From: Bacteroidales bacterium
Lineage (GTDB): Bacteria; Bacteroidota; Bacteroidia; Bacteroidales; Tenuifilaceae
Assembly: GCA_017524185.1 (NCBI GenBank)
Contig: JAFWUG010000071.1
Location: 3,445 to 67,444, forward strand
Reading direction: 5' to 3'
DNA length: 64,000 bases
In this document: positions 34,473 through 51,741 of the stretch, piece by piece
Numbering within the stretch: position 1 is the first letter of the stretch
Layout of the letters: the number at the start of each line of letters is the position of its first letter
Made by a program: the position numbers and the translations under genes
Notes under the pieces: generated by a model
Told to the model about the DNA's origin: nothing
Databases searched by the model: none
Seen by the model: the letters and a program-made list of their open reading frames with translations, nothing else

Positions 34473-34492
34473 ATTCGTAACAAATATCACAC

Positions 34493-36856: not shown

Positions 36857-37537
36857 ATGATTACAGTAAACAACCTTTCGCGAATCTTCCGGACGGAAGA
36901 AATTGAGACCACCGCCATCAACGGCGTATCGTTCGAAATCAACGACGGCGAATTTGTGGCCATCATGGGTCCTTCGGGCTGCGGCAAATCCACGCTGCTC
37001 AACGTGCTTGGCCTGCTCGACAGCCCCACCGGCGGCAGCTACATGCTGCTCGGCACCGAGGTGGCTGGCCTAAAGGAGAAAGACCGCACCAAGTTCCGCA
37101 AGGGCAACATCGGCTTTGTGTTCCAAAGCTTCAACCTAATCGACGAGCTCAATGTTTACGAGGACATCGAGCTGCCGCTGCGCTACCTCAACATGGGTGC
37201 CAAGGAGCGCAAGGAGCGCGTAACCAACATCATGAAACGCATGGCCATCAGCCACCGTGCGCAGCACTTCCCGGCGCAGCTCTCGGGCGGTCAGCAGCAG
37301 CGCGTGGCCATTGCCCGCGCCGTGGTGGCCAATCCCAAGCTAATCCTTGCCGACGAGCCAACGGGTAACCTCGACTCCAAAAACGGCAAGGAGGTGATGA
37401 ACCTGCTGCGCGAGCTCAACGCCGAGGGCACCACCATTGTGATGGTTACTCACTCGCAGAAGGATGCCGCCATGGCCCAGCGCATCATCAATCTGTTCGA
37501 TGGGCAGATTGTATCGGATGTTAAGAAAGAATTGTAA
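36857..37537 (+). CDS. ABC transporter ATP-binding protein (MacB/LolD-like)
   Basis: Walker A is GPSGCGKST, the signature is LSGGQQQRV and Walker B is LILADEPT. Confidence 0.9.
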
Positions 37538-37617
37538 TATTTATTACATTATTCAATTAATACCCTATAAAAGTAGGAACTATAGGAGTTATTGGTTTTA
37601 GTTTGTTTTGTTTCGTT

Positions 37618-37674
37618 CCTCGCAGCGGCGCTAACTGGGGGCTTCTCCCCCACGCCCTGCGAGGTTACGGAGCA
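37618..37674. other. Nested GC-rich hairpin in the 354-nt gap inside the efflux cluster
   Basis: CCTCGCAG (37618-37625) pairs with CTGCGAGG (37667-37674). This stem encloses GGGGG-CTTCT-CCCCC. Confidence 0.5.
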
Positions 37675-37891
37675 AAAAATTGTTTTGATTATGCGTAAAC
37701 CACATCCATTCAACCCAACAATATGTACAGCACAGTAGCATACTACTTGCAACCTGTCTCTTTCAAGGTCCCCAATTGTGATCTTGAAGTTACAAATTGT
37801 TACCTCAAGTTTGTAAATTGCTCATTGCAAAGCAAAAACTGGGCAGAAATCTGTTCTGTTCATATCGCTCAACGCCAAAAGTAATTATGCC

Positions 37892-40267
37892 ATGAAAAGC
37901 TACATCAAGTTTCTGTCGCGCAACAAGCTCTACACCGCCGTCGAGGCGGTGGGGCTAACCGTGAGCATAGCCTTCGTAATCCTGATTGGGAACTACGTGC
38001 TGCAGCAGCATCGGGTGGCGCGCGAATCGCCCCATTGGGAGCGCACCTTTGTGCTGGGTGCCAACGACAATCTTAACACCTCCTACTGGGATAAAGAGGA
38101 GCTGCAGATGAACATCCCCGAGGTGCTATGCGCCACCCACATGAATAATCTATGGAGACCGTTGGTGGAGGTGGGCGACACAAAGTTCTACGTCGAGGGT
38201 ATTGAGGGCGATGCCAATCTGTTCGAGGTTTTTCCGCAATATAGAATTGTGGAGGGCAGCGCGAGCGATTTTGTTGCACCAACCGACGTAATAATCAGCC
38301 AATCGCTGGCTCAACGCATTGCCAACAACGGCGAAAACCTACTGGGCAGCTCGCTAACGCTGAACGGAACGGCACGAACCATCAAGGCCATCTACGCCGA
38401 TTTTGGCCCAGCATCATTCCTCATGCCGTTCGAGGTCATTGCGCATAGCTCCAGTTCGCCAACAGCCAGCCAGCCCAAGCCCAAACGCTTCAATCGGCGA
38501 ACGCACCTCACATGGTACCGCGTGCGCGACGATGCCAATTTGGCCGATGTTGAGGCCAAGGTGAAAGCCCAGCTCCTCAAAAACTACGGCAGCAGCTGGG
38601 GCGGGCAAAATGTGGAAACATGGCGCCCCTGGCGCATGGACGAAGCATTCTACCACAGCGATCACACCTACCTCACGCGTGTGGGCGACAAGCTGATGGT
38701 GAAAATGCTAACGGCAGTGGTGCTGCTCCTGCTGCTCTCGGCCATATTCAACTACGTCAACCTAAGCCTAGCCCTCACCGGCAAACGCGCCAAGGAGATA
38801 GCCACACGACGGCTGCTGGGAGCCAGCCCAACGAGCATCCTTTGGAAATACATCGCCGAATCGGTGGCATTCACCGCCGTGTGCTTTGCGGCAGCGCTCG
38901 TGCTTGCCCACCTGCTGGTGCCCATGGTGCAGGAACTGCTTACGGTCGATGGCGAAATAGGCGTAACTCTCTCGCTAACAACATCCATAGGCCACATGGC
39001 AGCCTACGCCGCAGGAATAGTGCTGCTGGGCACCATCTGCGGTGTTCTGCCCGCCCTGGCCATCCTGCGCCTCACGCCCATCGATGCGGTTAGGGGTACG
39101 CTCCGCCTACGCAACAAAATGGTGGTAAGCCGCATATTCATTGCCGTGCAAAACGTGCTGGCCGTTACGCTCATCGCCCTGTCGCTGGTGATGGAGCTAC
39201 AGATGCGCCACATGCTCAATCGCCCCATGCATTCGGCCACCGATAATCTGTACTACATCGGCTATTCTCAGAGCGAAAGCCACGACATGACCATGCGCCT
39301 TGTGCACAAGGTGCGCAACCTACCATTCGTTACCCAGGTGGGCATAGGAATGGGTGTGCCAGGCTCCATCAATCTCAACGCCGCTTTGCACCCCGACGAC
39401 AATGACTATGAAAGAATAATTACCCTGAATATGATAGCCGGCGACTCCACCTACTTCAGCCTGATGGGGCTTGAGGTGGAGGAGAACTTCGGCCACCCGC
39501 TGCAGCATTCCGTTTGGGTGAGCCGCTCACTCTTCAATGAGCTCGACTCCCTAACAACATTCCCACACACCCTAAGCCGTTCCACGCGCATGCCCCTCGA
39601 ATATGTGGGCGGTGTTGTTACCGATTTCCCAACAGGAAAGGCCTCCGTTAGCGAAATCAAGCCGCACTGCGCGGTGATGGTGGTTCCCGCCGACAAAATC
39701 CCAGTGGGCTGGGCATTATGCATGCTAATCAAAACAACGGGCGAGAATGCCGCCTACGACGAACAAATTCAGCAGGCTTACCGCGAATACATGAAAGAGA
39801 ACCTCGACCTGGACGAAGTGAATGGGGAGGAATTCGGATTCCTACGCAATTTTCACGAAAAGCGGCTACGCCCCCTGCGCCGAACGCTACGCCTGCTCGA
39901 GCTGTTCACGGTGCTGGCTGTAATCATAGCAATGCTGGGGCTGCTGGCCATGAGCACCTACTTTGCCGACGAGCACACCAAGCAAATTGCAGTCCGCAAG
40001 GTGTTCGGTGCCGATGTGCGCGGCGAAACCTGGCGCAACGTGCGCGGCTACATGGTGCTAACGTGCATTGCCTGCGCAATTGGCATACCGCTGGCAATTT
40101 GGGGCGCACAGCTCTACCTCACACGATTTGCCTACCGCATAGATAACTACAGCTGGATATTTGCTGTAGCGGTGGTCATAACCATGGCCATCGCATTCGC
40201 CAGCGTGCTTTGGCAAACCCTCCGCGCCGCCCACACCAACCCCACCGCCGCGCTAAGGAAGGAGTGA
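37892..40267 (+). CDS. ABC transporter permease, FtsX/MacB-type (third copy)
   Basis: 791 aa with the same architecture as 32124 and 34493. The C-terminus is NPTAALRKE. Confidence 0.85.
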   Translation: MKSYIKFLSRNKLYTAVEAVGLTVSIAFVILIGNYVLQQHRVARESPHWERTFVLGANDNLNTSYWDKEELQMNIPEVLCATHMNNLWRPLVEVGDTKFYVEGIEGDANLFEVFPQYRIVEGSASDFVAPTDVIISQSLAQRIANNGENLLGSSLTLNGTARTIKAIYADFGPASFLMPFEVIAHSSSSPTASQPKPKRFNRRTHLTWYRVRDDANLADVEAKVKAQLLKNYGSSWGGQNVETWRPWRMDEAFYHSDHTYLTRVGDKLMVKMLTAVVLLLLLSAIFNYVNLSLALTGKRAKEIATRRLLGASPTSILWKYIAESVAFTAVCFAAALVLAHLLVPMVQELLTVDGEIGVTLSLTTSIGHMAAYAAGIVLLGTICGVLPALAILRLTPIDAVRGTLRLRNKMVVSRIFIAVQNVLAVTLIALSLVMELQMRHMLNRPMHSATDNLYYIGYSQSESHDMTMRLVHKVRNLPFVTQVGIGMGVPGSINLNAALHPDDNDYERIITLNMIAGDSTYFSLMGLEVEENFGHPLQHSVWVSRSLFNELDSLTTFPHTLSRSTRMPLEYVGGVVTDFPTGKASVSEIKPHCAVMVVPADKIPVGWALCMLIKTTGENAAYDEQIQQAYREYMKENLDLDEVNGEEFGFLRNFHEKRLRPLRRTLRLLELFTVLAVIIAMLGLLAMSTYFADEHTKQIAVRKVFGADVRGETWRNVRGYMVLTCIACAIGIPLAIWGAQLYLTRFAYRIDNYSWIFAVAVVITMAIAFASVLWQTLRAAHTNPTAALRKE

Positions 40268-42992: not shown

Positions 42993-43475
42993 CTACTGAG
43001 CCAACTCAGTGGTTGCAGAACGCACCAACAGCGTGGTTGCAGTGGTGTTGTTGTCGGGCGACATGATATTGAAATACAACCGCTGACTTGCGTCAACATC
43101 GGCTTTCTGGTCCTGCGTGAGAGTGTAGCGCACGGTTACAACGGTGTCGTCCACCACCATAATGCCATTGCCATCGTCGCCCTCGTAGTGCAGATGCGCC
43201 ACGGCGCTATAGTTGAACAATGTGTCGTGCATAAGTGCCTCCCAGAACTGCAAATTGCTCCACAGATTGGAGTGTTCAACCGAGCAGCGCAAATGTAGCT
43301 GCATCTCAGCACAATCGAGCAAGGGGTCGATATAGAGCGTGTCGGGGATACCGCCAACCACCTTTAGGTGAATGCTTTCAATGGTGTTTATGTTCTGTTT
43401 TTCGTCGAATTTACATCCAACCGCAACAAATAGCAACAACAGAACGAGCAGTAGGCTTGTAATGGCTGTACGCAT
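42993..43475 (-). CDS. Hypothetical lipoprotein, tandem paralog A
   Basis: 160 aa with lipobox FVAVGC. It shares about half its residues with 43562-44029, including the block LHLRCSVEHSNLWSNL. Confidence 0.7.
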   Translation of the reverse strand: MRTAITSLLLVLLLLFVAVGCKFDEKQNINTIESIHLKVVGGIPDTLYIDPLLDCAEMQLHLRCSVEHSNLWSNLQFWEALMHDTLFNYSAVAHLHYEGDDGNGIMVVDDTVVTVRYTLTQDQKADVDASQRLYFNIMSPDNNTTATTLLVRSATTELAQ

Positions 43476-43561: not shown

Positions 43562-44029
43562 CTATTTCTCAGCCCAATGAGGTAGCACCCAAAGCGTGTC
43601 GAAAATGCTATTTGGCGGCGAAATTAGATGAATATAGAGCTTTTGGCTAAAACCGGAATCTACAGTCATGCCCATGGGTATGCGATAGCCCACGCTAACA
43701 GCGGTGTCCTTGGTGATTGGAATGCCATTGCCATCGTACCCCTCATAAAACAGCGATGCCACAGCAGCATAGTGGAACACCGTGTCGCCCACCTTAGTGT
43801 TCATAAAACTAAGATTGCTCCATAGGTTTGAATGCTCCACCGAGCAGCGCAGATGCAGTTTTACTGCAGCCTCCAAACGAACGCTATCGAGATACAACGT
43901 GTCGGGGAGGGGCGATTTCAATTTCAGATGTATATACTCAACAGAACTAACCTCCTGCTTTCCCGATAAATCGCAAGCAGCAATTGCAAAAAACATCAAG
44001 CCTGATAGCAGTAGTATAGATATACGCAT
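43562..44029 (-). CDS. Hypothetical lipoprotein, tandem paralog B
   Basis: 155 aa with lipobox FAIAAC. It is a paralog of 42993-43475. Confidence 0.7.
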   Translation of the reverse strand: MRISILLLSGLMFFAIAACDLSGKQEVSSVEYIHLKLKSPLPDTLYLDSVRLEAAVKLHLRCSVEHSNLWSNLSFMNTKVGDTVFHYAAVASLFYEGYDGNGIPITKDTAVSVGYRIPMGMTVDSGFSQKLYIHLISPPNSIFDTLWVLPHWAEK

Positions 44030-44116
44030 AACGCACTGCTTTTTAGAAATTTAACAACGCTACAAAGGTAATAAAAAAAAACACAAATGACCACCCGACA
44101 AAGAGCGGGCAAAAGC

Positions 44117-44965
44117 CTACAGCACCTTGTTCTTGGAAAAGCGGCTGGTTATGAAACGACCACCAATGCTGAGTATTAGCACAATAAACGTGAGCACAAC
44201 GGCAGCAGCGTATGCCCTGTTCTGCACCTCTATCTGGGGTGCGCTGAGCTGAAAGAAAACGCTAAGAGGGAGCGTTGCCGTTTGCTGCGACAAGCTGGTG
44301 GGTATGCTGTCGGAAAAACCAGCGGCAAACATCACACCCGCTGCATCGCCTATGGCGCGGCCAATGGAAAGCAGCGTGGCCGTGGCTATGGCGGGGGCAA
44401 TCTGGCGCATAACCACGCCAATTGTCTCAATGCGCGTGGCTCCAAGGCTGTAGGAGGCCTCCAGTATCTCCTTGGGAAAGGTTTTAGCCACCTCATCCAT
44501 GGAGCGAATCAGAATGGGAATGATGAGCAGCGCCACCACTATTATACCGCCCAGCAACGATGCCCTGAGCCCAAAAAATATCATCACGGTGAAACCGAAT
44601 GCGCCATAAACAATTGATGGTATGCCAAATAGCACATCGAACGCCAACCTGGCAACGTAGCCCAACTTGGAATCTTGCCGCAGATAGACGTTCAGGTAGA
44701 ACACCACCGGTATGCTAAACACCAATCCCAGCAGCGTGCTTGCGCCCACAATGTAGAGCGAGCCAACAATGGCGTTCAAAAAACCTCCCTCCTTGCCAAT
44801 GTAGAAACCACCACCGGGCAGCGAGGTAATCATCTCCCAGGTGAGCACTGGTATGCCACGCTTGAATACGCTAAAAATCACGCTCAGCACAAAGAATAGT
44901 ACCACGGCCACCGAGAACAGCATCAGACCTCGGAATATGCGTTCTTCTATAAATTTACGTTTCAT
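44117..44965 (-). CDS. pstA: PstA-family ABC permease
   Basis: 282 aa with 6 TM segments and a binding-protein-dependent transport motif region. It follows the pstC-like gene. Confidence 0.8.
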   Translation of the reverse strand: MKRKFIEERIFRGLMLFSVAVVLFFVLSVIFSVFKRGIPVLTWEMITSLPGGGFYIGKEGGFLNAIVGSLYIVGASTLLGLVFSIPVVFYLNVYLRQDSKLGYVARLAFDVLFGIPSIVYGAFGFTVMIFFGLRASLLGGIIVVALLIIPILIRSMDEVAKTFPKEILEASYSLGATRIETIGVVMRQIAPAIATATLLSIGRAIGDAAGVMFAAGFSDSIPTSLSQQTATLPLSVFFQLSAPQIEVQNRAYAAAVVLTFIVLILSIGGRFITSRFSKNKVL

Positions 44966-44988
44966 ACAATTGCCTATATTCTATTTGT

Positions 44989-45888
44989 TTATTTATCCTT
45001 GGCCATGCGACGAAGCACAACCCGCGAACCCAGGTTGAATACCAGCACCACAAAGAACAGGATAAAAGCTGCGAACATCAATGCGGCCTCATAGAGCGGC
45101 TGCGATAGCATCTCGCCATAGTTGTTGGCAATGAGCGCAGGTATGGGATAGCACGCTTCGAGCAACGAGCGCGGTGCCTTGGGCAGATTGCCGCAAACCA
45201 TCAGCACGGCCACCGTTTCGCCAAGCGCACGGCTAATGGCCAGCACCACCGAGGCCAAAATACCTGGTGCAGTTTTGAGCAGCACAACAAACTTGGTGGT
45301 TTGCCATCGTGTAGCGCCCAAGGCCAACGACGATTCGCGCAAATCGTTCGACACGCTAGCAAATATCTCAATGAAGAGACTCACCAGCAGCGGCAAAATC
45401 ATCACGCTGAGCACAATGCCGCTGGCCAACACAGTGTAGCCACTCGATATGCCATTGGCCGAAAAACGCGGTCCAAGATAGTCGGCTATGAAAGGCACAA
45501 TCACCAGTGTGCCCCAAACGCCGTAGATTACCGACGGAATGCCCGCCAAAATATCGAGCAACGGATAAACATAGCGGCGCACAGCGCTATGCGCATACTC
45601 CATCAAGTAGATGGCCATGAGCATAGCCACGGGCAACGCTATGAGTACGGCAATACCCGTAACCCATAGCGTCCCCATGATGAACGGAAAGAAACCGAAC
45701 TGATTACGCAAAGGCTTCCAATGCGATGCCGACAGCAGTTCCCAAAGCGAATGCTCCTGCAAAATGGGAGCCGACTTCAGATAAAGTCCAACGCCCATAA
45801 CCACCACCAGCAGCAACGATAGCACAGTAAAGACAAGCATCAGCCGTCCTGCCATGCGATCTTTGAAAAGCCTGTATCTCGATTTCAC
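44989..45888 (-). CDS. pstC: PstC-family ABC permease
   Basis: 299 aa polytopic protein with SLALGATRWQT in the EAA loop. Confidence 0.8.
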   Translation of the reverse strand: MKSRYRLFKDRMAGRLMLVFTVLSLLLVVVMGVGLYLKSAPILQEHSLWELLSASHWKPLRNQFGFFPFIMGTLWVTGIAVLIALPVAMLMAIYLMEYAHSAVRRYVYPLLDILAGIPSVIYGVWGTLVIVPFIADYLGPRFSANGISSGYTVLASGIVLSVMILPLLVSLFIEIFASVSNDLRESSLALGATRWQTTKFVVLLKTAPGILASVVLAISRALGETVAVLMVCGNLPKAPRSLLEACYPIPALIANNYGEMLSQPLYEAALMFAAFILFFVVLVFNLGSRVVLRRMAKDK

Positions 45889-45918
45889 TTCCTTAATGCC
45901 ATTTGTCTGCCTTCCCTG

Positions 45919-46899
45919 CTATTTCAGCATTTCAAGGCTACGATTCACTTTTTCGGGACTCATGCCAATATAGCCCTGGGGTACATTCTCTTTCTGACCC
46001 TCGGTGAGTATATAGCGCAAAAAGTCGATAACTACAGGATTTTTGGGTATCCCCTTCGACACCAAATAAAGATCGCGGGCGGGAGGCGAGGGATAGCGAT
46101 CATTGGCTATGGCCTCCACAATCAGGTCTTTGTTGTCGTAGAAATTTTCCTCGGGGTCAATTTGCCCATTGCCATTCACATCGATGGGCAACACCAACAG
46201 ACCATCGTGGGTTTTCTTGGTGTTAATATCGTAGGCATAGCCTATGTTGTTAAACCCAATACTGTTGGGGTCTTTCTGCACGGCGGCAGCCAAACCAGGG
46301 TCGCCAAACACAGCCACACCGTTCAAGTCTTCCTGACGCTGACCAAACCACAGCGCCCATGTTTCGGCAGCCCCGCAAGCATCGGTGCGGTTGTAAACAG
46401 TTATGGGTGTCGCATCGGTAGTGCCAGCCAGTTGCCCCCAAGTGGTTATGGTCTGGTCGATCCACAAGCCATGAGCGGCCTCACGGGTTAGACCCTTTTT
46501 TAGCAAATCGGCTAAAATAGGATTGTTAGCATTGATGGTAGGCACCACAGCGTCCTTGGCAACAGCAAAAGGCACAGCCCCTTTATCGAGCTCTACCTGC
46601 GCAATCTCGCGCGACACCATGCCAAAATCTACCACACCTGCCAGCGCATCGGTGATACCCTTGCCTGCTCCACCGGCTGAGATGTCGATTTTTACTTCGG
46701 GGTGCAATTTCTGATACTCTGCTGCCCATTTAACTGCCAGCGGATACAGCGCAAAAGCACCCGACAAAGAAATCTCGTTGCTATAGGTGCCAGTGCTATC
46801 GTTGGCGTTTTTTTTCTTTCCGCCAATGCACGATGTGGCTCCGCCCAGCACCAATGCGGCAACACTGATGGCCGCAATGCATAGTAATGTTCGTTTCAT
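45919..46899 (-). CDS. pstS: PstS-family (PBP_like_2) substrate-binding lipoprotein
   Basis: Lipobox GGATSC, with LSGAFALYPLAVKWAAEY and SAGGAGKGI. It lies 44 nt downstream of cysH on the same strand. Confidence 0.8.
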   Translation of the reverse strand: MKRTLLCIAAISVAALVLGGATSCIGGKKKNANDSTGTYSNEISLSGAFALYPLAVKWAAEYQKLHPEVKIDISAGGAGKGITDALAGVVDFGMVSREIAQVELDKGAVPFAVAKDAVVPTINANNPILADLLKKGLTREAAHGLWIDQTITTWGQLAGTTDATPITVYNRTDACGAAETWALWFGQRQEDLNGVAVFGDPGLAAAVQKDPNSIGFNNIGYAYDINTKKTHDGLLVLPIDVNGNGQIDPEENFYDNKDLIVEAIANDRYPSPPARDLYLVSKGIPKNPVVIDFLRYILTEGQKENVPQGYIGMSPEKVNRSLEMLK

Positions 46900-46943
46900 C
46901 GTAAATAATTAAGAATTAGGTATTTGGTTTAGTTTGTTTTGAC

Positions 46944-47660
46944 TTATGAATTATTGCGATGCAGGCCACACTCGCGATGGTCGGGCGACTCCCACCACCA
47001 CCGACCAGAACGTATATCGTCGCCAGGTTTCACAGCGCGGGTGCATGGTTCGCAGCCTATGCTCGGAAAACCCTTGTCGTGCAACTTGTTATAGGGGACA
47101 TGATGCTCGCGGATATAAGCCCAAACCTGTTCCTCGCTCCAATCTATTAGCGGGTTAACCTTAACCAAGCCGTGCATAGCATCCCACTCCACGGCCTGCA
47201 TATCGTGGCGCGTAACCGACTGCTGACGGCGAAGCCCGCAAATCCAAGCATTGCAGCCTGCAAAAGCCCGCGCGAGCGGCTCCAGCTTGCGCACCTGGCA
47301 GCAGCGATGGCGGCTCTCAATGCTATTATAGAACAGGTTGATACCCTCGGCGCGCACCATCTGCTCAACAGCCTCGTGCTGCGGAAAATAAGTGGCTATA
47401 CTGATGCCATAGTGCATGGCTGTTTTGTCGATTAGCTGATAGGTTTCGGGGAACAACCTCCCAGTGTCGAGGGTAAAAATGCGGACCTTGGGGTCTATCT
47501 TTACAGCCATATCGGTAAGCACTTGATCCTCAATGCTTAGGCTCGACGACAGGGCAATACCATGCCCAAACGTGCGAAGCGCGGCAGCCATGATGTCGTG
47601 CGCTGATGCACCTTGAAGCGACTGGTTGAGTTCGGCGGCTAATTCGGCGGTGGGTTTCAT
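46944..47660 (-). CDS. cysH: Adenylyl-sulfate (APS)/PAPS reductase CysH; Fe-S (APS reductase) subtype predicted
   Basis: 238 aa. A CC pair (RHRCCQVRK) plus CxxC (SIGCEPCT) are the cluster ligands of APS reductases. The C-terminal ECGLH motif is present. Confidence 0.85.
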   Translation of the reverse strand: MKPTAELAAELNQSLQGASAHDIMAAALRTFGHGIALSSSLSIEDQVLTDMAVKIDPKVRIFTLDTGRLFPETYQLIDKTAMHYGISIATYFPQHEAVEQMVRAEGINLFYNSIESRHRCCQVRKLEPLARAFAGCNAWICGLRRQQSVTRHDMQAVEWDAMHGLVKVNPLIDWSEEQVWAYIREHHVPYNKLHDKGFPSIGCEPCTRAVKPGDDIRSGRWWWESPDHRECGLHRNNS

Positions 47661-47675
47661 GCGTCGTGCTGATGC

Positions 47676-48950
47676 TTATTTAATCATACCCGCACCCACG
47701 GTCTCGTTGGTATCGGGGTCGATGAATATAAGGCTTCCAGTGGTACGATTGTCGGCGTAGCGGTCGAACACCAGCGGATTAGCGGCACGCAGGGTTATCT
47801 CGGCTATGTCGTTCATGCGCAACTCGCCCACGTTAGTTTCGAGTTCCAAAGTGTTGATGTTACGCCTATGGTTGATGGCACTAACCATGCCCATGGTTTC
47901 GGCGGTTGCCTGGCGCACCACGTATTTGCTGCGGGGAAGCAGGGGACGCTCGTTGAACCAGCACACATCAACCACAACCTCGCGCTCCACCTGTGGCTGC
48001 GGCTCATCGGCACGTACCAACAAGTCGCCACGGCTGATGTCAATGTCATCGGTTAACTCAATGGTGATGCTCGATGGTGCATAAGCCTCATTCATGGGCG
48101 TTTGTGCCATACCAATGGCCTTCACCGTGCTCTCCAAGCCCGATGGCAGCACCCGCACACGGTCCTCCATGCGGAGCACACCTCCAGCCACACGTCCAGC
48201 GTAGCCCCTAAAATCGGCAAATCTGTCGCTAATGGGACGTATCACATACTGCACAGGCATTCTGAAATGCTCGCCTCCCAACTTGTTGGGCATTGGCACT
48301 GTTTCCAAAAAATTTAGCAGCGGCTTGCCTGTGTACCAAGGCATATTCTCTGAGGCGTTCACCACGTTATCGCCCTTTTTGGCACTAATGGGAATGAACT
48401 CCACGTTAGGAATCTGCAGCACCTCCGACATGCGCCTGTAGGCAGCAACAATGTCGTTGTAAACCTGCTCCGAATAGTCAACCAAGTCCATCTTGTTGAT
48501 GGCCACCACAATGGTGGGTATGCCCAACAGACTCGAAATATAGCTGTGGCGAATGGTTTGCTCCAGCACACCATGGCGAGCATCAACCAATATGATCGAC
48601 AAATCGGAGGTAGACGCTCCGGTTACCATGTTTCGGGTATATTGAATATGTCCCGGAGTGTCGGCTATGATGAATTTACGGCGTGGCGTAGCAAAATAGC
48701 GGTAGGCCACGTCGATGGTGATGCCCTGCTCGCGCTCAGCGCGAAGGCCGTCGGTGAGCAAGGCAAGGTTCACATCCTCGTTGCCACGCGATTTTGAGGC
48801 GGCCTCCACCGCCTCCAATTGATCCTCGAATATGGATTTACTATCGTAGAGCAAACGCCCTATGAGCGTGCTTTTGCCATCATCGACGCTGCCTGCGGTT
48901 GAAAATCGCAGCAGTTCCATGTCGAGGTATCCTCTTGTGCTATCTAACAT
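47676..48950 (-). CDS. cysN: Sulfate adenylyltransferase subunit 1 (GTPase) CysN, without a fused APS kinase domain
   Basis: GSVDDGKSTLIGRLL, DTPGH and NKMD are present. At 424 aa there is no CysC extension. Confidence 0.9.
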   Translation of the reverse strand: MLDSTRGYLDMELLRFSTAGSVDDGKSTLIGRLLYDSKSIFEDQLEAVEAASKSRGNEDVNLALLTDGLRAEREQGITIDVAYRYFATPRRKFIIADTPGHIQYTRNMVTGASTSDLSIILVDARHGVLEQTIRHSYISSLLGIPTIVVAINKMDLVDYSEQVYNDIVAAYRRMSEVLQIPNVEFIPISAKKGDNVVNASENMPWYTGKPLLNFLETVPMPNKLGGEHFRMPVQYVIRPISDRFADFRGYAGRVAGGVLRMEDRVRVLPSGLESTVKAIGMAQTPMNEAYAPSSITIELTDDIDISRGDLLVRADEPQPQVEREVVVDVCWFNERPLLPRSKYVVRQATAETMGMVSAINHRRNINTLELETNVGELRMNDIAEITLRAANPLVFDRYADNRTTGSLIFIDPDTNETVGAGMIK

Positions 48951-48976
48951 TGCTTTGTGTGGTGTCTTTTGGGTGT

Positions 48977-49882
48977 TTAGAAGTATCCCGCTTTTTTACG
49001 ATCCTCCATGGCTGTTTCGGAGCGCTTATCATCGGCACGGCTACCGCGCTCGGTTACACGGGTGGCGGCAATCTCCTCAATTATATCCTCCAGCGAGTGA
49101 GCCGCCGACAGGGTTAGCCCTGTGCAGGTGATGTCGCCAATGGTGCGGCAGCGTACCTGCTTGGTTATCACCTGCTCGGTGGGTTTGCGGGGGATGCATG
49201 GCTCGGCTGCGAGCCACTGCCCATCGCGCTCGAACACCTCGCGCTGATGGGTGAAATATAGGCTTGGCATGGGAATTTGCTCCTGATAGATATACTGCCA
49301 AACGTCCATCTCGGTCCAGTTGGAGATGGGGAACACTCGGAAATGCTCGCCCATAGCCTTTTTCCCATTATAGATGCTCCAGAGCTCGGGGCGCTGATTT
49401 TTGGGATTCCACTGCCCAAACTCGTCGCGATGGCTAAAGAAGCGCTCCTTGGCTCGGGCCTTCTCCTCATCGCGACGCGCTCCGCCAATGGCGGCATCGA
49501 AACGATGCTGCTCAATGGTGTCAAGCAGGGTAACGGTTTGCAGCTTATTGCGGCTGGCATAGTAGCCAGTTTCCTCCTTCACGCGGCCTTTGTCGATGCT
49601 CTCCTGCACTGAGCCCACAATAAGTTCTGCACCAATGCGTTGAACCAGCGCATCGCGATAGTCGAGGGTTTCCTGAAAATTATGTCCCGTGTCGATATGC
49701 AGCAACGGGAAAGGCAGCCGGGCTGGGTAGAACGCCTTGTAAGCTAGGTGTGTAACCACAATGGAGTCCTTGCCGCCCGAGAACAGAATCACTGGGCGTT
49801 CGAACTGAGCCGCTGCCTCACGCAGCACATAAATCGACTCGGCCTCAAGCTCTTTTAGGTGTGTTATTTTGGGCTTATCCAT
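48977..49882 (-). CDS. cysD: Sulfate adenylyltransferase subunit 2 CysD
   Basis: The PAPS_reduct fold has ILFSGGKDS. I placed the start at ATG 49882 (MDKPKITHLKELEAESI). The longest ORF runs to 49978. Confidence 0.9.
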   Translation of the reverse strand: MDKPKITHLKELEAESIYVLREAAAQFERPVILFSGGKDSIVVTHLAYKAFYPARLPFPLLHIDTGHNFQETLDYRDALVQRIGAELIVGSVQESIDKGRVKEETGYYASRNKLQTVTLLDTIEQHRFDAAIGGARRDEEKARAKERFFSHRDEFGQWNPKNQRPELWSIYNGKKAMGEHFRVFPISNWTEMDVWQYIYQEQIPMPSLYFTHQREVFERDGQWLAAEPCIPRKPTEQVITKQVRCRTIGDITCTGLTLSAAHSLEDIIEEIAATRVTERGSRADDKRSETAMEDRKKAGYF

Positions 49883-49955
49883 ATCTGATGTATAAACAAT
49901 ACACCACCCAATGCCACAAGGCTCAGCCTCCTGATTCGGGCATTGGGAAGCAGGC

Positions 49956-49963
49956 GCAAAAAT
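49956..49963 (-). promoter_or_regulatory. -7 box TATTTTTG (with TTTG 19 nt upstream) for the cysD operon
   Basis: TAnnTTTG on the minus strand, 74 nt upstream of ATG 49882. A -33-like TTTG lies at 49983-49986. Confidence 0.4.
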
Positions 49964-50010
49964 AGCGTTTTTCTGCAATAATCAAATGAGATATGTGAGG
50001 GTAGATTTAT

Positions 50011-50028
50011 ATACCAAACGTTAGGTAT
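50011..50028. promoter_or_regulatory. Operator-like palindrome ATACCAAACGTTAGGTAT (17/18 symmetric)
   Basis: It lies upstream of the cysD promoter. It is a near-identical copy of the perfect palindrome at 50737-50754. Confidence 0.6.
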
Positions 50029-50037
50029 TTTCACACC

Positions 50038-50685
50038 CTAACCGAACACCGACAGGTCGAAAACGCCCATGCGCAAGGCAGCCATCACGGCATCGTGGGC
50101 GGTTTTCACGCCCAGTTTTCTGAATATATTCTTACGATGCGTGTTGACGGTGTGTCGGCTCAAGAAGCGCTCTTGCGCTATCTGGCGCGTGGTTTTGCCC
50201 TGCGCAATGCAGCGCAAGATTTCAATCTCGGTGTAGGTCAAATCCTCCGTAACGCCATGCTCCATGTCGTGTTTTTGCAGACTGAGCAGCATTTCCGTAG
50301 CCCTATGGCACATGTAGCGCTCGTGCTTAAGCGCATACTCGATGCCTGCCATCACAGCCTGCTCCGACGAATCTTTGAAAACCACGCCTACACAGCGCGT
50401 TTCGTAGGCAATGCGCCGCAAAAAACTCACCGACAGCCTATCGCTCAGCAACAGCCACGAAGCATCTGGAAATCTGAGCGTTAGCCCAATAAGCGAGTCC
50501 TCGCTATCGAAATCGAGCAGCTTAAAATCGAGCAACACCACGGCTTTAGGGTACAACACAAGCAAACCCGTGAGTTCGGCACTAGTATTGACCCTATGCT
50601 GTATGCAATCGGGGAAAGCACTCAGCATGGCACTAAGCCCTTTGCGCGTAAGCTCCTGATTATCTGCAAGAATAAAGCAAGTCAT
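50038..50685 (-). CDS. LuxR/FixJ-type response-regulator-like transcription factor (atypical receiver)
   Basis: 215 aa. The C-terminal LuxR HTH is LTYTEIEILRCIAQGKTTRQIAQERFLSRHTVNTHRKNIFRKLG. The receiver-like N-domain has ADN in place of the usual acidic pair. No kinase gene is adjacent. Confidence 0.8.
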   Translation of the reverse strand: MTCFILADNQELTRKGLSAMLSAFPDCIQHRVNTSAELTGLLVLYPKAVVLLDFKLLDFDSEDSLIGLTLRFPDASWLLLSDRLSVSFLRRIAYETRCVGVVFKDSSEQAVMAGIEYALKHERYMCHRATEMLLSLQKHDMEHGVTEDLTYTEIEILRCIAQGKTTRQIAQERFLSRHTVNTHRKNIFRKLGVKTAHDAVMAALRMGVFDLSVFG

Positions 50686-50702
50686 GGCGTTGTTATCGGG
50701 TG

Positions 50703-50710
50703 CAAATATA
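50703..50710 (-). promoter_or_regulatory. -7 box TATATTTG for the LuxR-type gene
   Basis: TAnnTTTG on the minus strand, 18-25 nt upstream of ATG 50685. Confidence 0.35.
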
Positions 50711-50736
50711 GCCTTTTTACATCAATACACACAAAA

Positions 50737-50754
50737 ATACCAAACGTTTGGTAT
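50737..50754. promoter_or_regulatory. Operator-like perfect 18-bp palindrome ATACCAAACGTTTGGTAT
   Basis: It lies in the divergent luxR-type/pstB-like intergenic region. Confidence 0.6.
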
Positions 50755-50799
50755 TAAAAAGACATCGCCTATGGTATTGTTATAGCACCAAAAACGCTG

Positions 50800-50807
50800 T
50801 ATCTTTG
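50800..50807 (+). promoter_or_regulatory. -7 box TATCTTTG for the pstB-like gene
   Basis: TAnnTTTG, 68 nt upstream of ATG 50875. Confidence 0.4.
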
Positions 50808-50874
50808 CTGCCTATTATTATGAAGTATTTGATGCTAGAAGTGCCGCACCGCCCGCATCGCGAAAAGCAAGCCA

Positions 50875-51741
50875 ATGAGCAATCCACTGAAACAACTAAT
50901 ATTGCGCTATAAGCGCAACAAGGGCGAAGTTGCCATCAACTCGCGCAAGTCGTTTGTTGTGAACAGCAAATTCCCCAAGTTGGAGAACGCCCAGCTGTCC
51001 ACCCAAAACCTCAACGTATATATCAACGGAGCGCATATCCTTAAAGACGTAACGGTGGACATCCCCCGCAACAAAATTACCTGCATAATAGGTCCGTCGG
51101 GGTGCGGCAAAAGCACACTGCTACGCACATTCAACCGCCTCACCGACACCACCGAGGGCGTTAAAATCACGGGCGATGTGCTGCTGGGCGACCGCAGCAT
51201 TACCAAGGCCAGCGGCACAGAAATCACCGAACTTAGGCGCAACATCGGACTGGTGCCACAAAAACCCTGTCCGCTGCCCATGAATATCTACGCCAACGTG
51301 GTTTATGGATGCCGCATACACGGCATACATGGCCGTTCAAAGCTCAACGCCGTGGTGCGCCACTACCTACGAGCCGTGGGGCTATGGGACGAGGTGAAGG
51401 ATCGCCTGCGCTCACCAGCAGCCCGCCTGTCGATTGGACAGCAACAACGCCTATGCCTTGCGCGCTCGCTGGCCGTTGAGCCCAACTACTTGCTGGCCGA
51501 CGAGTCCACCTCGGCACTCGACCCCATATCGAGCCGCACCATTGAGGAACTATTCGTGCGACTGAAAGAGGAGTACTCCATTGTGATGGTTACACACACT
51601 CTGCGCCAGGCCATGCGCATAGCCGACTATGTAGTATTTATGTACCTAGGCGAGGTGATTGAGGCGGGCGAGGCGCAGCAGATATTTCGCAATCCCCAAA
51701 AAGAACTCACCCAGCGCTACCTCAAAGGAGCTTTCAGCTAA
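50875..51741 (+). CDS. pstB: PstB-family ABC ATPase (divergent signature motif)
   Basis: [26 protein letters not shown] and VMVTHTLRQA are PstB-like. The signature is LSIGQQQRL instead of LSGGQ. An N-terminal extension of about 35 aa is present. Confidence 0.8.
   Translation: MSNPLKQLILRYKRNKGEVAINSRKSFVVNSKFPKLENAQLSTQNLNVYINGAHILKDVTVDIPRNKITCIIGPSGCGKSTLLRTFNRLTDTTEGVKITGDVLLGDRSITKASGTEITELRRNIGLVPQKPCPLPMNIYANVVYGCRIHGIHGRSKLNAVVRHYLRAVGLWDEVKDRLRSPAARLSIGQQQRLCLARSLAVEPNYLLADESTSALDPISSRTIEELFVRLKEEYSIVMVTHTLRQAMRIADYVVFMYLGEVIEAGEAQQIFRNPQKELTQRYLKGAFS

What the first reader, a model, noticed from the sequence alone, without database searches (positions are those of the whole stretch)
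44117..51741. Pst-family ABC importer embedded in the sulfate-assimilation operon: candidate non-phosphate (sulfate?) transporter
Gene arrangement:
- Six same-strand genes, cysD-cysN-cysH-pstS-pstC-pstA, are packed with gaps of 15-44 nt. No hairpin terminator lies between cysH and the pstS-like gene.
- The matching ATPase (pstB-like) is not in the string. It lies 900 bp upstream of cysD, divergent from a LuxR-type regulator.
- No phoU is present.

Established knowledge:
- Canonical Pst systems are pstSCAB-phoU units regulated by phosphate.
- Sulfate ABC importers use Sbp/CysP-CysTWA.
- In Bacillus subtilis, a phosphate-transporter-family (PiT) protein encoded in the cysH operon acts as the sulfate permease.

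Inference: by analogy and by operon context, this Pst-like system may import sulfate or a related sulfur oxyanion rather than phosphate.
Basis: partly seen in the sequence, partly recalled or inferred. Interest (0 to 1): 0.65.

Follow-up and report, generated by a model that had tools for sequence, protein, structure and literature searches.

The report
Phosphate-type ABC importer repurposed for sulfate
A transporter that databases label as a phosphate pump sits inside the sulfate-assimilation genes of a gut or rumen Bacteroidales bacterium, has lost most of the residues that grip phosphate, and is most likely the cell's sulfate importer, a role not yet recognised for this transporter family.

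Summary
On the minus strand the order is a LuxR-type regulator, cysD, cysN, cysH (APS-reductase type), then PstS-, PstC- and PstA-like genes. A PstB-like ATPase is transcribed divergently. No phoU lies in the window.

Three lines of evidence favour sulfate over phosphate:
- **Conserved linkage.** At least 486 species genomes encode this PstS variant. In 54 of 80 fetched loci its genes lie within 10 kb of cysDNH, sulfite reductase or cysK. More than ten gene orders occur. In a Ratteibacteria genome the neighbours are a non-homologous Sat-type ATP sulfurylase and an APS kinase.
- **Remodelled binding site.** Five of the six Ser/Thr hydroxyl ligands of phosphate-binding proteins are replaced by Ala, Phe or Cys. 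The Arg and one Ser are kept. The signature holds down to 46% identity.
- **A separate phosphate system.** One relative carries a canonical pstSCAB-phoU-phoB a few kb away. PstS, PstA and PstB score below NCBIfam cut-offs.

An 18-bp palindrome upstream of both cysD and the luxR/pstB promoter region links the ATPase to the operon.

No literature describing this was found. Ligand binding and transport remain untested. Verdict: new specificity variant of the Pst family; about 0.78 confidence.

The parts
44091..44112 (-). Weak terminator-like hairpin immediately after the pstA-like stop codon; likely the end of the operon
   Evidence: 7-bp stem with 4 GC pairs, T-poor tail. It is the only minus-strand hit downstream of the string.
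44117..44965 (-). PstA-like ABC permease (282 aa)
   Evidence: TIGR00974 181.7 bits, below the 193.45 cut-off; the equivalent of E. coli PstA Arg220 is kept, but 'GETAP' becomes 'GDAAg' in the variant clade. Orthologues at 63-94% identity occur in the related loci; after coverage filters 56 were recovered.
44989..45888 (-). PstC-like ABC permease (299 aa from GTG; NCBI aa)
   Evidence: TIGR02138 261.6 bits, above the 196.45 cut-off; equivalents of E. coli PstC Arg237 and Glu241 are kept. NCBI names it PstC.
45919..46899 (-). PstS-like substrate-binding lipoprotein (326 aa; lipobox Cys24) with a remodelled anion pocket: SGAFA(46-50), GGAGKG(76-81), VSR(95-97), R171, CGA(175-177), W181
   Evidence: TIGR02136 113 bits against a 206.6 cut-off. 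PF12849; residue mapping to the binding sites of 4GD5 and E. coli PstS. AF2 model pLDDT 82; best PDB matches are all phosphate-binding proteins; the signature is invariant across 22 family members.
46944..47660 (-). CysH, thioredoxin-dependent APS reductase type (CC...CxxC iron-sulfur motif, ECGLH)
   Evidence: TIGR02055 272.9 bits, above the 235.3 cut-off; the translated sequence contains RCCQVRK, GCEPC and ECGLH.
47676..48950 (-). CysN, sulfate adenylyltransferase GTPase subunit (no fused APS kinase)
   Evidence: TIGR02034 554.5 bits, above the 336.1 cut-off. The protein is 424 aa and ends before the kinase domain of the PRK05506 model.
48977..49882 (-). CysD, sulfate adenylyltransferase small subunit (the ORF runs up to 49978 from a TTG; the likely ATG is at 49882)
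   Evidence: NF003587 452.6 bits, aligned from residue 35 of the long ORF. ATG followed by GATAAGCCC at that position.
49883..49955 (-). cysD leader with two predicted hairpins; function unknown
   Evidence: MFE -29.1 kcal/mol, z = -2.55 against shuffles; no Rfam family hit.
50011..50028 (.). 18-bp near-perfect palindrome ATACCTAACGTTTGGTAT upstream of cysD; candidate operator of the LuxR-type regulator
   Evidence: the 15-nt core occurs in the window only here and at 50737-50754, apart from one 2-mismatch hit. Expected by chance 0.26; 0 of 100 shuffles reached 5 matches.
50038..50685 (-). GerE/LuxR-type transcription factor with a degenerate receiver-like N-terminal domain (215 aa)
   Evidence: PF00196 only, with no Response_reg hit; full-length but sub-threshold matches to NarL/FixJ-type response regulators; homologues in 11 of 80 related loci.
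50737..50754 (.). Perfect 18-bp palindrome ATACCAAACGTTTGGTAT in the divergent luxR/pstB-like promoter region; candidate operator
   Evidence: the same 14-nt core lies upstream of pstB-like genes in L001, L003, L004, L041 (two copies) and L075.
50875..51741 (+). PstB-like ABC ATPase (288 aa, with about 35-40 extra N-terminal residues relative to canonical PstB)
   Evidence: TIGR00972 319 bits, below the 343.2 cut-off; orthologues at 56-86% identity in 57 of 80 loci, mostly directly after pstA-like; only 46% identical to a canonical Bacteroidota PstB.

Best explanation
This is a four-component ABC importer descended from the phosphate (Pst/PhoT) family that now brings in sulfate for assimilation.

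**Proposed mechanism.**
- A lipid-anchored periplasmic binding protein (PstS-like) captures sulfate.
- It docks on the PstC/PstA-like permease pair.
- The PstB-like ATPase, encoded separately, drives import.
- The co-transcribed CysDN converts sulfate to APS, and the APS reductase CysH converts APS to sulfite. Sulfite reductase is encoded elsewhere in this genome.

**Proposed basis of specificity.** The Ser/Thr hydroxyl ligands of phosphate-binding proteins are replaced by Ala, Phe or Cys. This includes the hydroxyl thought to accept phosphate's proton. What remains is backbone NH groups, one Ser and one Arg. That is a donor-only pocket suited to a fully ionised, proton-free oxyanion, as in the unrelated sulfate-binding protein Sbp.

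**Proposed regulation.** A LuxR-type regulator probably controls its own gene, the cysD operon and the divergent ATPase gene through a shared 18-bp palindrome.

**Shown versus inferred.**
- Shown: gene content, conserved linkage, residue substitutions, sub-threshold family scores, the repeated palindrome.
- Inferred: the ligand, the pocket chemistry, the regulator-operator pairing and the sign of regulation.
For: **Linkage.**
- At least 486 GTDB species genomes encode a relative.
- In 54 of 80 fetched loci the variant pst genes lie within 10 kb of cysD/N/H, a NIR_SIR-TusA sulfite reductase or cysK. More than 10 distinct orders occur: porin-pstSCAB-cysDNH in 10 loci, pstSCAB-cysDNH in 6, cysDNH-porin-pstSCAB-luxR, pstCA-cysDNH-SiR-pstS, and pstB-SiR...pstSCA-cysDNH.
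- Most loci without a sulfur gene are truncated contigs.
- In a Candidatus Ratteibacteria genome, a 56%-identical variant with the same site signature follows a Sat-type ATP sulfurylase and an APS kinase on the same strand.
- Rrf2-family regulators sit directly upstream in L012, L087 and L088.

**Not a standard phosphate system.**
- PstS scores 113 bits against a 206.6 cut-off, PstA 181.7 against 193.45, PstB 319 against 343.2.
- No phoU lies in the window. phoU occurs in only 1 of 80 loci, where it belongs to an adjacent canonical pstS(259 bits)-C-A-B(399 bits)-phoU-phoB in L043.

**Binding site.**
- Mapping onto C. perfringens PBP-1 (ligands listed in PMC5381212) gives S11->A48, T12->F49, S13->A50, S41->A78, S129->C175 and T131->A177. 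S59->S96, R125->R171 and G130->G176 are kept.
- These residues are invariant in 22 family members. They are conserved at 46-56% identity in other lineages and recognisable in representatives down to about 35% identity.

**Fold and architecture.**
- The AF2 model (pLDDT 82) matches phosphate-binding proteins, with target-normalised TM-score up to 0.85.
- The permease Arg/Glu pairs are kept.

**Regulation.** The palindrome sits upstream of cysD and in the luxR/pstB intergenic region. It recurs upstream of pstB-like genes in L001, L003, L004, L041 and L075.

**Pathway logic.** CysH is of the APS-reductase type, so CysDN + CysH need only sulfate as input.
Against: - No experiment addresses ligand binding, transport or regulation in any member.
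- S-type phosphate-binding proteins are already the least selective class (PMC5381212). Residual phosphate binding cannot be excluded from sequence.
- The pocket geometry was inferred from alignments only.
- Eight loci with full 10-kb flanks on both sides showed no cys gene: L019, L047, L056, L066, L072, L043, L064, L080. Two of these carry another sulfur gene (cysK in L056, sulfite reductase in L080).
- Two members at 46-48% identity (L082, L084) are stand-alone operons with no sulfur gene.
- The Ratteibacteria locus is also followed by arsenic-resistance-like genes.
- This window contains no sulfite reductase, porin or cysK.
- Whether this genome has another sulfate or phosphate transporter is unknown.
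Confidence: 0.78

Rival explanations
1. It is still a phosphate importer: a divergent, low-selectivity S-type Pst system that happens to be co-located with cys genes. One possible reason would be that phosphate and sulfur demand are coupled.
For: - All homology points to the Pst family. PstC passes the curated PstC cut-off.
- Every best structural match is a phosphate-binding protein.
- Arg171, Ser96 and the backbone-NH scaffold are retained.
- The permease Arg/Glu residues known to be required in E. coli PstC and PstA are kept.
- Some family members stand alone without sulfur genes.
Against: - Five of six hydroxyl ligands are lost, including the proposed proton acceptor.
- PstS, PstA and PstB fall below curated cut-offs.
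- No variant system is accompanied by phoU.
- A complete canonical pstSCAB-phoU-phoB coexists with the variant in L043.
- Linkage to sulfate-activating enzymes persists through more than 10 rearrangements, and holds with a non-homologous ATP sulfurylase.
- No known physiology links phosphate import to CysDNH.
Confidence: 0.07
2. It imports a different or broader set of oxyanions: thiosulfate, sulfite, selenate or molybdate, or sulfate and thiosulfate together as CysP and Sbp do in enterobacteria. Sulfate would then be only one substrate, or not the main one.
For: - The enlarged, more hydrophobic pocket (Ala, Phe, Ala, Ala, Cys, Ala) could accommodate larger anions.
- Cys175 is an unusual ligand-site residue.
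- In several loci the genes sit next to sulfite reductase, cysK or ThiF/JAB sulfur-carrier genes rather than cysDN.
Against: - The most frequent and tightest partners are CysD and CysN, whose substrate is sulfate. In Ratteibacteria the partners are Sat and APS kinase.
- Thiosulfate or sulfite would bypass these enzymes.
Confidence: 0.12
3. The PstS-like protein and the transporter act mainly as a sensor, a signalling complex analogous to Pst-PhoU-PhoR, rather than as the nutritional uptake route.
For: - Canonical Pst doubles as the phosphate sensor (established knowledge).
- A dedicated regulator with a degenerate receiver domain is encoded next to the genes.
Against: - No PhoU-like coupling protein and no histidine kinase is present in the window.
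- Only 11 of 80 loci carry the LuxR-type gene, while all retain full transporter architecture.
- An anion-porin gene is co-encoded in 41 loci, which fits bulk uptake.
Confidence: 0.03

Closest known systems
S-type phosphate-binding proteins and their PstSCAB transporters (C. perfringens PBP-1, PDB 4GD5/4Q8R; Synechocystis SphX and Sll0540; NCBIfam TIGR02136)
   Same: - Same fold (Foldseek target-normalised TM-score 0.85 to 4GD5) and same Pfam domain PF12849.
- Same ABC architecture with PstC-, PstA- and PstB-type partners.
- Ser in place of the E. coli Asp56, followed by Arg (VSR vs ASR).
- The conserved Arg before the second-lobe glycine loop is kept.
   Different: - The hydroxyl ligands S11, T12, S13, S41, S129 and T131 (4GD5 numbering, PMC5381212) become A, F, A, A, C, A.
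- The score is about half the family cut-off (113 vs 206.6 bits).
- Identity to a canonical Bacteroidota PstS is about 28%.
- No phoU accompanies it. It is embedded in sulfate-assimilation genes instead of a Pho regulon unit.
E. coli PstSCAB-PhoU (D-type, TC 3.A.1.7.1)
   Same: - Four-component binding-protein-dependent ABC importer.
- Equivalents of PstC Arg237/Glu241 and PstA Arg220 are present.
   Different: - There is no Asp56 equivalent and therefore no low-barrier hydrogen bond.
- T10, S38, S139 and T141 are replaced.
- phoU is absent.
- The ATPase gene is detached and divergently transcribed in this window.
SulT sulfate/thiosulfate ABC importer CysPTWA with Sbp (TC 3.A.1.6)
   Same: - The predicted job is the same: ATP-driven sulfate uptake feeding CysDN.
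- The predicted recognition logic is the same: mainly backbone NH donors and few or no proton acceptors (established knowledge for Sbp; inferred here).
   Different: - It is not the same family. Hits to CysT/CysW models are far below cut-off (52.6 vs 246.1 bits), and the binding protein has no Sbp/CysP hit.
- It would be an independent, convergent origin of sulfate specificity.
Bacillus subtilis CysP, a PiT-family phosphate-transporter homologue encoded in the cysH operon that transports sulfate
   Same: - The evolutionary theme is the same: a member of a phosphate-transporter family, recruited into a cysH operon, used for sulfate.
- CysP's function is shown again in PMC11535334, Fig. 6.
   Different: CysP is a single-polypeptide secondary carrier, not an ABC system. 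There is no sequence relationship to the proteins here.
OprO/OprP-type anion-selective porins (Pfam Porin_O_P)
   Same: In 41 of 80 related loci a Porin_O_P-family gene lies immediately upstream of the PstS-like gene. This parallels the pairing of phosphate porins with Pst in Pseudomonas.
   Different: This window has no such gene. Its selectivity for sulfate is only presumed.

Membership tests
Canonical phosphate Pst system (PstSCAB-PhoU) | The binding protein passes a curated PstS model (TIGR02136 or TIGR00975) | tested here: not met
   113.2 bits against a 206.6 cut-off; 61.3 against 205. Ten more distant family representatives score 79-124 bits. A genuine Bacteroidota PstS scores 259.
Canonical phosphate Pst system (PstSCAB-PhoU) | Phosphate-ligating side chains are present: Asp56-type low-barrier H-bond (D-type) or the Ser/Thr hydroxyl set (S-type) | tested here: not met
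   There is no Asp, and five of six hydroxyl positions are Ala, Phe or Cys. Only Ser96 and Arg171 are kept. Ligand lists come from PMC5381212 and PMC13614923.
Canonical phosphate Pst system (PstSCAB-PhoU) | The permeases and ATPase pass the PstC, PstA and PstB equivalog models | tested here: inconclusive
   PstC 261.6 is above 196.45 (met). PstA 181.7 is below 193.45 and PstB 319 is below 343.2 (not met, but close).
Canonical phosphate Pst system (PstSCAB-PhoU) | Linked phoU / Pho-regulon control | tested here: not met
   Linkage: no PhoU or PhoB in the window. PhoU is found in 1 of 80 related loci, and there it belongs to a separate canonical operon. Pho-box or PhoB control of these promoters was not tested.
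Canonical phosphate Pst system (PstSCAB-PhoU) | Type II periplasmic binding-protein fold plus two permeases and one ATPase | tested here: met
   (AF2 model and Foldseek). (BPD_transp_1 in both permeases, ABC_tran in the ATPase).
SulT sulfate/thiosulfate ABC importer (CysPTWA/Sbp) | Homology of the binding protein to Sbp/CysP, and of the permeases to CysT/CysW, above family thresholds | tested here: not met
   the binding protein has no Sbp/CysP hit. CysT scores 52.6 against 246.1; CysW scores 32.9 against 329.1.
SulT sulfate/thiosulfate ABC importer (CysPTWA/Sbp) | Genomic and regulatory association with sulfate-assimilation genes | tested here: met
   (linkage). (shared palindrome).
Any sulfate transporter | Demonstrated sulfate binding or uptake | not testable with these tools
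   This needs ITC or DSF, 35S-sulfate uptake, or complementation.
NarL/FixJ-type response regulators (for the LuxR-type gene) | A recognisable receiver domain with the acidic pocket | tested here: not met
   only GerE (PF00196) is detected, with no Response_reg; the N-terminus reads FILADNQ where DD is usual. Full-length NCBIfam hits are far below cut-off (80 vs 242 bits).

The most novel reading that the evidence does not exclude
A large, unrecognised clade of Pst/PhoT-family ABC transporters is a distinct class of bacterial sulfate importer. It is defined by the binding-site signature SGA[FWY]A / GGAGKG / xSR / RDACGA..W. It would have arisen from S-type phosphate-binding proteins by stripping out the hydroxyl ligands. 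It would be the main route of sulfate entry in much of the gut and rumen Bacteroidales (at least 486 species) and would occur in other phyla. Every current annotation pipeline would be counting it as phosphate uptake.
Probability: 0.7. Interest if true: 0.72.

Novelty: new variant of a known kind. Interest (0 to 1): 0.63.

Why it matters
**Transporter biology.** Recognised bacterial sulfate importers are SulT (CysPTWA), SulP, CysZ, PiT-type CysP and a few recently found carriers (PMC11535334). A sulfate-specific branch of the Pst family would add another.

**Anion discrimination.** Phosphate versus sulfate discrimination by periplasmic binding proteins is a textbook case. Here one scaffold appears to have been switched from one anion to the other through a handful of identifiable substitutions. 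Mutagenesis could test that directly.

**Annotation and microbiome inference.**
- These genes are abundant in gut and rumen metagenomes and are labelled pstS/C/A/B.
- That mislabelling inflates inferred phosphate-scavenging capacity.
- It also hides the fact that many Bacteroidales appear able to assimilate sulfate. This bears on sulfur budgets, competition with sulfate reducers, and cysteine auxotrophy predictions.

**Regulation.** The locus offers a compact regulon for dissecting sulfur regulation in Bacteroidales, where little is known: a LuxR-type factor plus an 18-bp palindrome.

Tried and rejected
- **Riboswitch or known RNA upstream of cysD.** Rfam at gathering thresholds found only two tRNAs in the window. 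The leader folds into two hairpins (z = -2.55), but I did not pursue its conservation.
Rejected as uninformative. The protein belongs to the S-type lineage, which has Ser at that position even in true phosphate binders.
- **Lys80 and Glu179 as sulfate-specific residues.** Rejected. Both also occur in canonical S-type sequences (GGSGKG, SGT.EF).
- **TupA/ModA-type tungstate or molybdate binder.** No family hit. The nearest molybdate-type structure ranks 46th, with a target-normalised TM-score of 0.63 (0.47 on the query).
- **Canonical pst system or other sulfate transporter in this MAG.** Cannot be tested from 64 kb. tblastn found none in the window.
- **Literature.** Six full-text searches found no paper describing a Pst-type sulfate transporter or noting pstS inside cys operons of Bacteroidota. 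Subscription-only literature is not covered.
- **Pocket inspection in the AF2 model.** Coordinates are not exposed, so the residue mapping rests on HMM and MAFFT alignments plus the model's secondary-structure positions.
- **Extending the cys linkage to more distant members.**
  - Two stand-alone operons have no sulfur gene (L082, L084).
  - Two have an Rrf2 regulator upstream (L087, L088).
  - One is linked to Sat and APS kinase (L086).
  - The evidence beyond the clade at 55% identity or more is therefore suggestive only.

Full report
**1. What is in the sequence**

The window comes from a Bacteroidales metagenome-assembled genome. The PstS-like protein is 100% identical to NCBI MBR7067674.1, named 'MAG: substrate-binding domain-containing protein [Bacteroidales bacterium]'.

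ORF listing and profile searches give this order on the minus strand:
- a GerE/LuxR-type regulator, 50038-50685
- cysD, ORF 48977-49978, with the family alignment and an ATG pointing to a start at 49882
- cysN, 47676-48950
- cysH, 46944-47660
- a PstS-like binding protein, 45919-46899
- a PstC-like permease, 44989-45888
- a PstA-like permease, 44117-44965

A PstB-like ATPase (50875-51741) is transcribed divergently from the regulator gene.

Other points checked:
- Intergenic gaps from cysD to pstA are 26, 15, 44, 30 and 23 nt.
- No terminator-like hairpin lies between cysH and the PstS-like gene. A weak one follows pstA directly.
- CysH carries the CC...CxxC iron-sulfur motif and passes the APS-reductase model. 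CysDN + CysH can therefore take sulfate to sulfite without an APS kinase.
- tblastn with a canonical PstS, PhoU, PhoB, an anion porin, a sulfite reductase and CysK finds none of them in the 64 kb.

The one correction is that the regulator gene lies on the same strand as the cys genes, directly upstream of cysD.

**2. The transporter is Pst-derived but is not a standard phosphate system**

Scores against the curated phosphate-family models:

| Component | Score (bits) | Cut-off (bits) | Passes |
|---|---|---|---|
| PstC-like | 261.6 | 196.45 | yes |
| PstS-like | 113.2 | 206.6 | no |
| PstA-like | 181.7 | 193.45 | no |
| PstB-like | 319 | 343.2 | no |

- An AlphaFold2 model of the binding protein (mean pLDDT 82.4) matches only phosphate-binding proteins at the top of a PDB search. 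Target-normalised TM-score reaches 0.85 to C. perfringens PBP-1. Descent from the family is not in doubt.
- A genuine Bacteroidota PstS, from locus L043, scores 259 bits and shares only about 28% identity with the window protein.

**3. The binding site has been rebuilt**

Two classes of phosphate-binding protein are described (PMC5381212; PMC13614923):
- D-type proteins use Asp56 (E. coli numbering) in a low-barrier hydrogen bond.
- S-type proteins have Ser there and hold phosphate through 14 hydrogen bonds, six or seven of them from Ser/Thr hydroxyls.

In C. perfringens PBP-1 the ligands are Ser11, Thr12, Ser13, Ser41, Ser59, Arg125, Ser129, Gly130 and Thr131. The Ser13 hydroxyl is proposed to accept the phosphate proton.

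The profile alignment to 4GD5 and a MAFFT alignment with E. coli PstS and the canonical L043 PstS map these positions as follows:

| 4GD5 ligand | Window residue | Status |
|---|---|---|
| Ser11 | Ala48 | replaced |
| Thr12 | Phe49 | replaced |
| Ser13 | Ala50 | replaced |
| Ser41 | Ala78 | replaced |
| Ser59 | Ser96 | kept |
| Arg125 | Arg171 | kept |
| Ser129 | Cys175 | replaced |
| Gly130 | Gly176 | kept |
| Thr131 | Ala177 | replaced |

- Five of six hydroxyl donors or acceptors are gone, including the proposed proton acceptor.
- These residues are invariant in a 22-sequence family alignment.
- They are identical in members at 46-56% identity from other lineages.
- The hallmark SGA[FWY]A ... 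RDxxGA..W is recognisable in cluster representatives down to about 35% identity. Canonical S-type signatures (SGSTT ... RExSGT) appear only at lower scores.
- All ten distant representatives tested also fall below the PstS cut-off.

By inference, what remains is backbone NH groups, one Ser and one Arg. That resembles the donor-only pocket of the unrelated sulfate-binding protein Sbp (established knowledge, Quiocho's work). It would disfavour protonated phosphate.

In the permeases, the equivalents of E. coli PstC Arg237/Glu241 and PstA Arg220 are retained, which fits continued anion translocation. The PstA 'GETAP' motif is 'GDAAg' in the clade.

**4. Comparative context is the strongest evidence**

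A scan of one genome per GTDB species found at least 486 genomes encoding a relative. The best 80 loci were fetched. They cover Prevotella/Segatella, Alistipes, Rikenellaceae, Paludibacteraceae, Dysgonomonas, Tannerella, Coprobacter, Lentimicrobiaceae, Marinilabiliaceae and others.

tblastn with the window proteins, ORF clustering and Pfam annotation show:
- 62 loci with PstC-like orthologues and 57 with PstB-like orthologues.
- 54 of 80 loci with cysD/N/H, a 775-aa NIR_SIR-TusA sulfite reductase, or cysK within 10 kb.
- Most of the remaining loci are cut by contig ends.

The gene order is highly variable:
- porin-pstS-C-A-B-cysD-N-H in 10 loci
- the same without the porin in 6 loci
- cysDNH-porin-pstSCAB-luxR
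- the window's own arrangement, shared with L001
- pstC-A-cysDNH-sulfite reductase-pstS (L076)
- pstB next to sulfite reductase, with pstSCA-cysDNH elsewhere (L058, L071, L079)

Each of the four transporter components is thus found independently beside sulfate-reduction genes.

Other recurrent neighbours are siroheme and haem-precursor genes, ThiF and JAB sulfur-carrier genes, an O-acetylhomoserine-sulfhydrylase-like enzyme, and Rrf2 and AraC regulators.

A Porin_O_P-family outer-membrane gene sits directly upstream of the PstS-like gene in 41 loci. That would complete an envelope-spanning anion route. This window lacks it.

PhoU occurs in only one locus, L043. There it belongs to a complete canonical pstS-C-A-B-phoU-phoB unit lying about 2 kb beyond the variant operon. 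This shows that the two systems coexist in one genome.

Outside Bacteroidales:
- A Candidatus Ratteibacteria contig places a 56%-identical variant with the same site signature directly after a Sat-type ATP sulfurylase and an APS kinase. These enzymes are not homologous to CysDN but act on the same substrate.
- Two other members have an Rrf2 regulator immediately upstream.
- Two are stand-alone operons.

**5. Regulation**

- A perfect 18-bp palindrome, ATACCAAACGTTTGGTAT, lies in the luxR/pstB intergenic region (50737-50754).
- A one-mismatch copy lies upstream of cysD (50011-50028).
- The core is otherwise absent from the window apart from one 2-mismatch hit. Expected occurrence is 0.26, and 0 of 100 shuffles reached the observed count.
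- The same core is found upstream of pstB-like genes in L001 (both positions, as in the window), L003, L004, L041 (two copies) and L075.
- TAnnTTTG boxes of the Bacteroidetes -7 type follow each site. This is my reading. The consensus itself is established knowledge.

The adjacent regulator has a GerE DNA-binding domain and a receiver-like N-terminus. Pfam does not recognise that N-terminus, and it lacks the usual acidic pair.

I infer that this protein binds the palindromes and co-regulates its own gene, the cysD-to-pstA operon and the detached ATPase gene. The effector and the sign of control are unknown.

**6. Interpretation and rivals**

| Explanation | Confidence |
|---|---|
| Sulfate-specific offshoot of the Pst family feeding CysDN-CysH | 0.78 |
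| Other or additional sulfur oxyanions (e.g. thiosulfate) as substrate | 0.12 |
| Residual phosphate importer | 0.07 |
| Primarily a sensor | 0.03 |

- **Phosphate importer.** This is hard to reconcile with the lost ligands, the missing phoU, the coexisting canonical system and the persistent sulfur linkage.
- **Other oxyanions.** This cannot be excluded from sequence. The partnership with sulfate-activating enzymes argues that sulfate is at least a main substrate.
- **Sensor.** This is unlikely given the full transporter architecture and the co-encoded porin.

**7. Comparison with known systems and novelty**

- Mechanistically it should work like any binding-protein-dependent ABC importer. 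Physiologically it should act like CysPTWA/Sbp.
- By descent it belongs to the Pst/PhoT family, but it fails that family's functional membership tests: the curated thresholds for three of the four components, the ligand residues, and phoU linkage.
- It is not a SulT member.
- The closest conceptual precedent is B. subtilis CysP, a PiT-family phosphate-transporter homologue in the cysH operon that carries sulfate (established knowledge; function illustrated in PMC11535334). CysP is an unrelated secondary carrier.
- Six full-text searches found no description of a Pst-type sulfate importer.
- The June 2026 NCBIfam release has no model for it.

I rate it a new variant of a known kind, of moderate to high interest. 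It is widespread, systematically mis-annotated, and speaks directly to the classic problem of phosphate/sulfate discrimination.

**8. Limits**

- Nothing here measures binding, transport or expression.
- The pocket description rests on alignments, not on inspected coordinates.
- The rest of this MAG could not be examined for a canonical pst system, sulfite reductase or other sulfate carriers.
- The sulfur linkage is demonstrated for the clade at 55% identity or more, plus one Ratteibacteria example. It is not demonstrated for the whole signature-bearing family.

Noticed in passing
window 50011-50028 and 50737-50754: An 18-bp palindrome (ATACCWAACGTTTGGTAT) occurs twice: upstream of cysD, and in the luxR/pstB divergent promoter region. 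The same core lies upstream of pstB-like genes in L001, L003, L004, L041 and L075. It is a candidate operator of the LuxR-type regulator.
   Followed up: partly
window 49883-49955 (-): The cysD leader folds into two adjacent hairpins (-29.1 kcal/mol, z = -2.55). No Rfam family matches. Its conservation in other loci was not examined.
   Followed up: partly
window 42993-43475 and 43562-44029 (-): Two tandem paralogous small lipoprotein-like genes (160 and 155 aa) with similar N-termini lie directly downstream of pstA-like. The 155-aa gene has no Pfam or NCBIfam hit. The 160-aa gene has no NCBIfam hit and was not scanned against Pfam. A 63%-identical homologue occupies the same position in L001.
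   Followed up: partly
L043 10001-20841: One Lentimicrobiaceae contig carries the variant pstSCAB. About 2 kb further on it carries a complete canonical pstS-pstC-pstA-pstB-phoU-phoB. The canonical PstC has an N-terminal extension of about 130 aa.
   Followed up: yes
L086 1009-7191 (Candidatus Ratteibacteria, GCA_028715665.1): Sat-type ATP sulfurylase, APS kinase, DUF2292, DUF2490 and then the variant pstSCAB all lie on one strand. ArsR/ArsP/Acr3-like arsenic-resistance-type genes follow immediately.
   Followed up: partly
related loci, e.g. L061 8793-9884 and 14277-16604: A Porin_O_P-family outer-membrane gene lies directly upstream of the PstS-like gene in 41 of 80 loci. The linked sulfite reductase is an unusual 775-aa protein with duplicated NIR_SIR domains and a C-terminal TusA sulfur-carrier domain.
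   Followed up: partly
protein P0162 (representatives search): A 651-aa protein fuses a variant PstS-like binding domain (52% identical to the window protein, SGAFA/GGAGKG signature) to a PstC-like permease. It would be a tethered-receptor version of the system.
   Followed up: no
window 36857-40267 (+), with further 777-782-aa ORFs at 32124-36826: A DarD/MacB-like ABC ATPase is followed by an ADOP-family duplicated FtsX-type permease. Upstream lie several more long ORFs that may be paralogous permeases. The array is unrelated to the finding.
   Followed up: no
L082 13652-14935; L087 11578-12840; L072 8619-9884: In some loci an Alginate_exp-type outer-membrane barrel takes the place of the Porin_O_P gene next to the variant pst genes. 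This suggests alternative outer-membrane partners.
   Followed up: no
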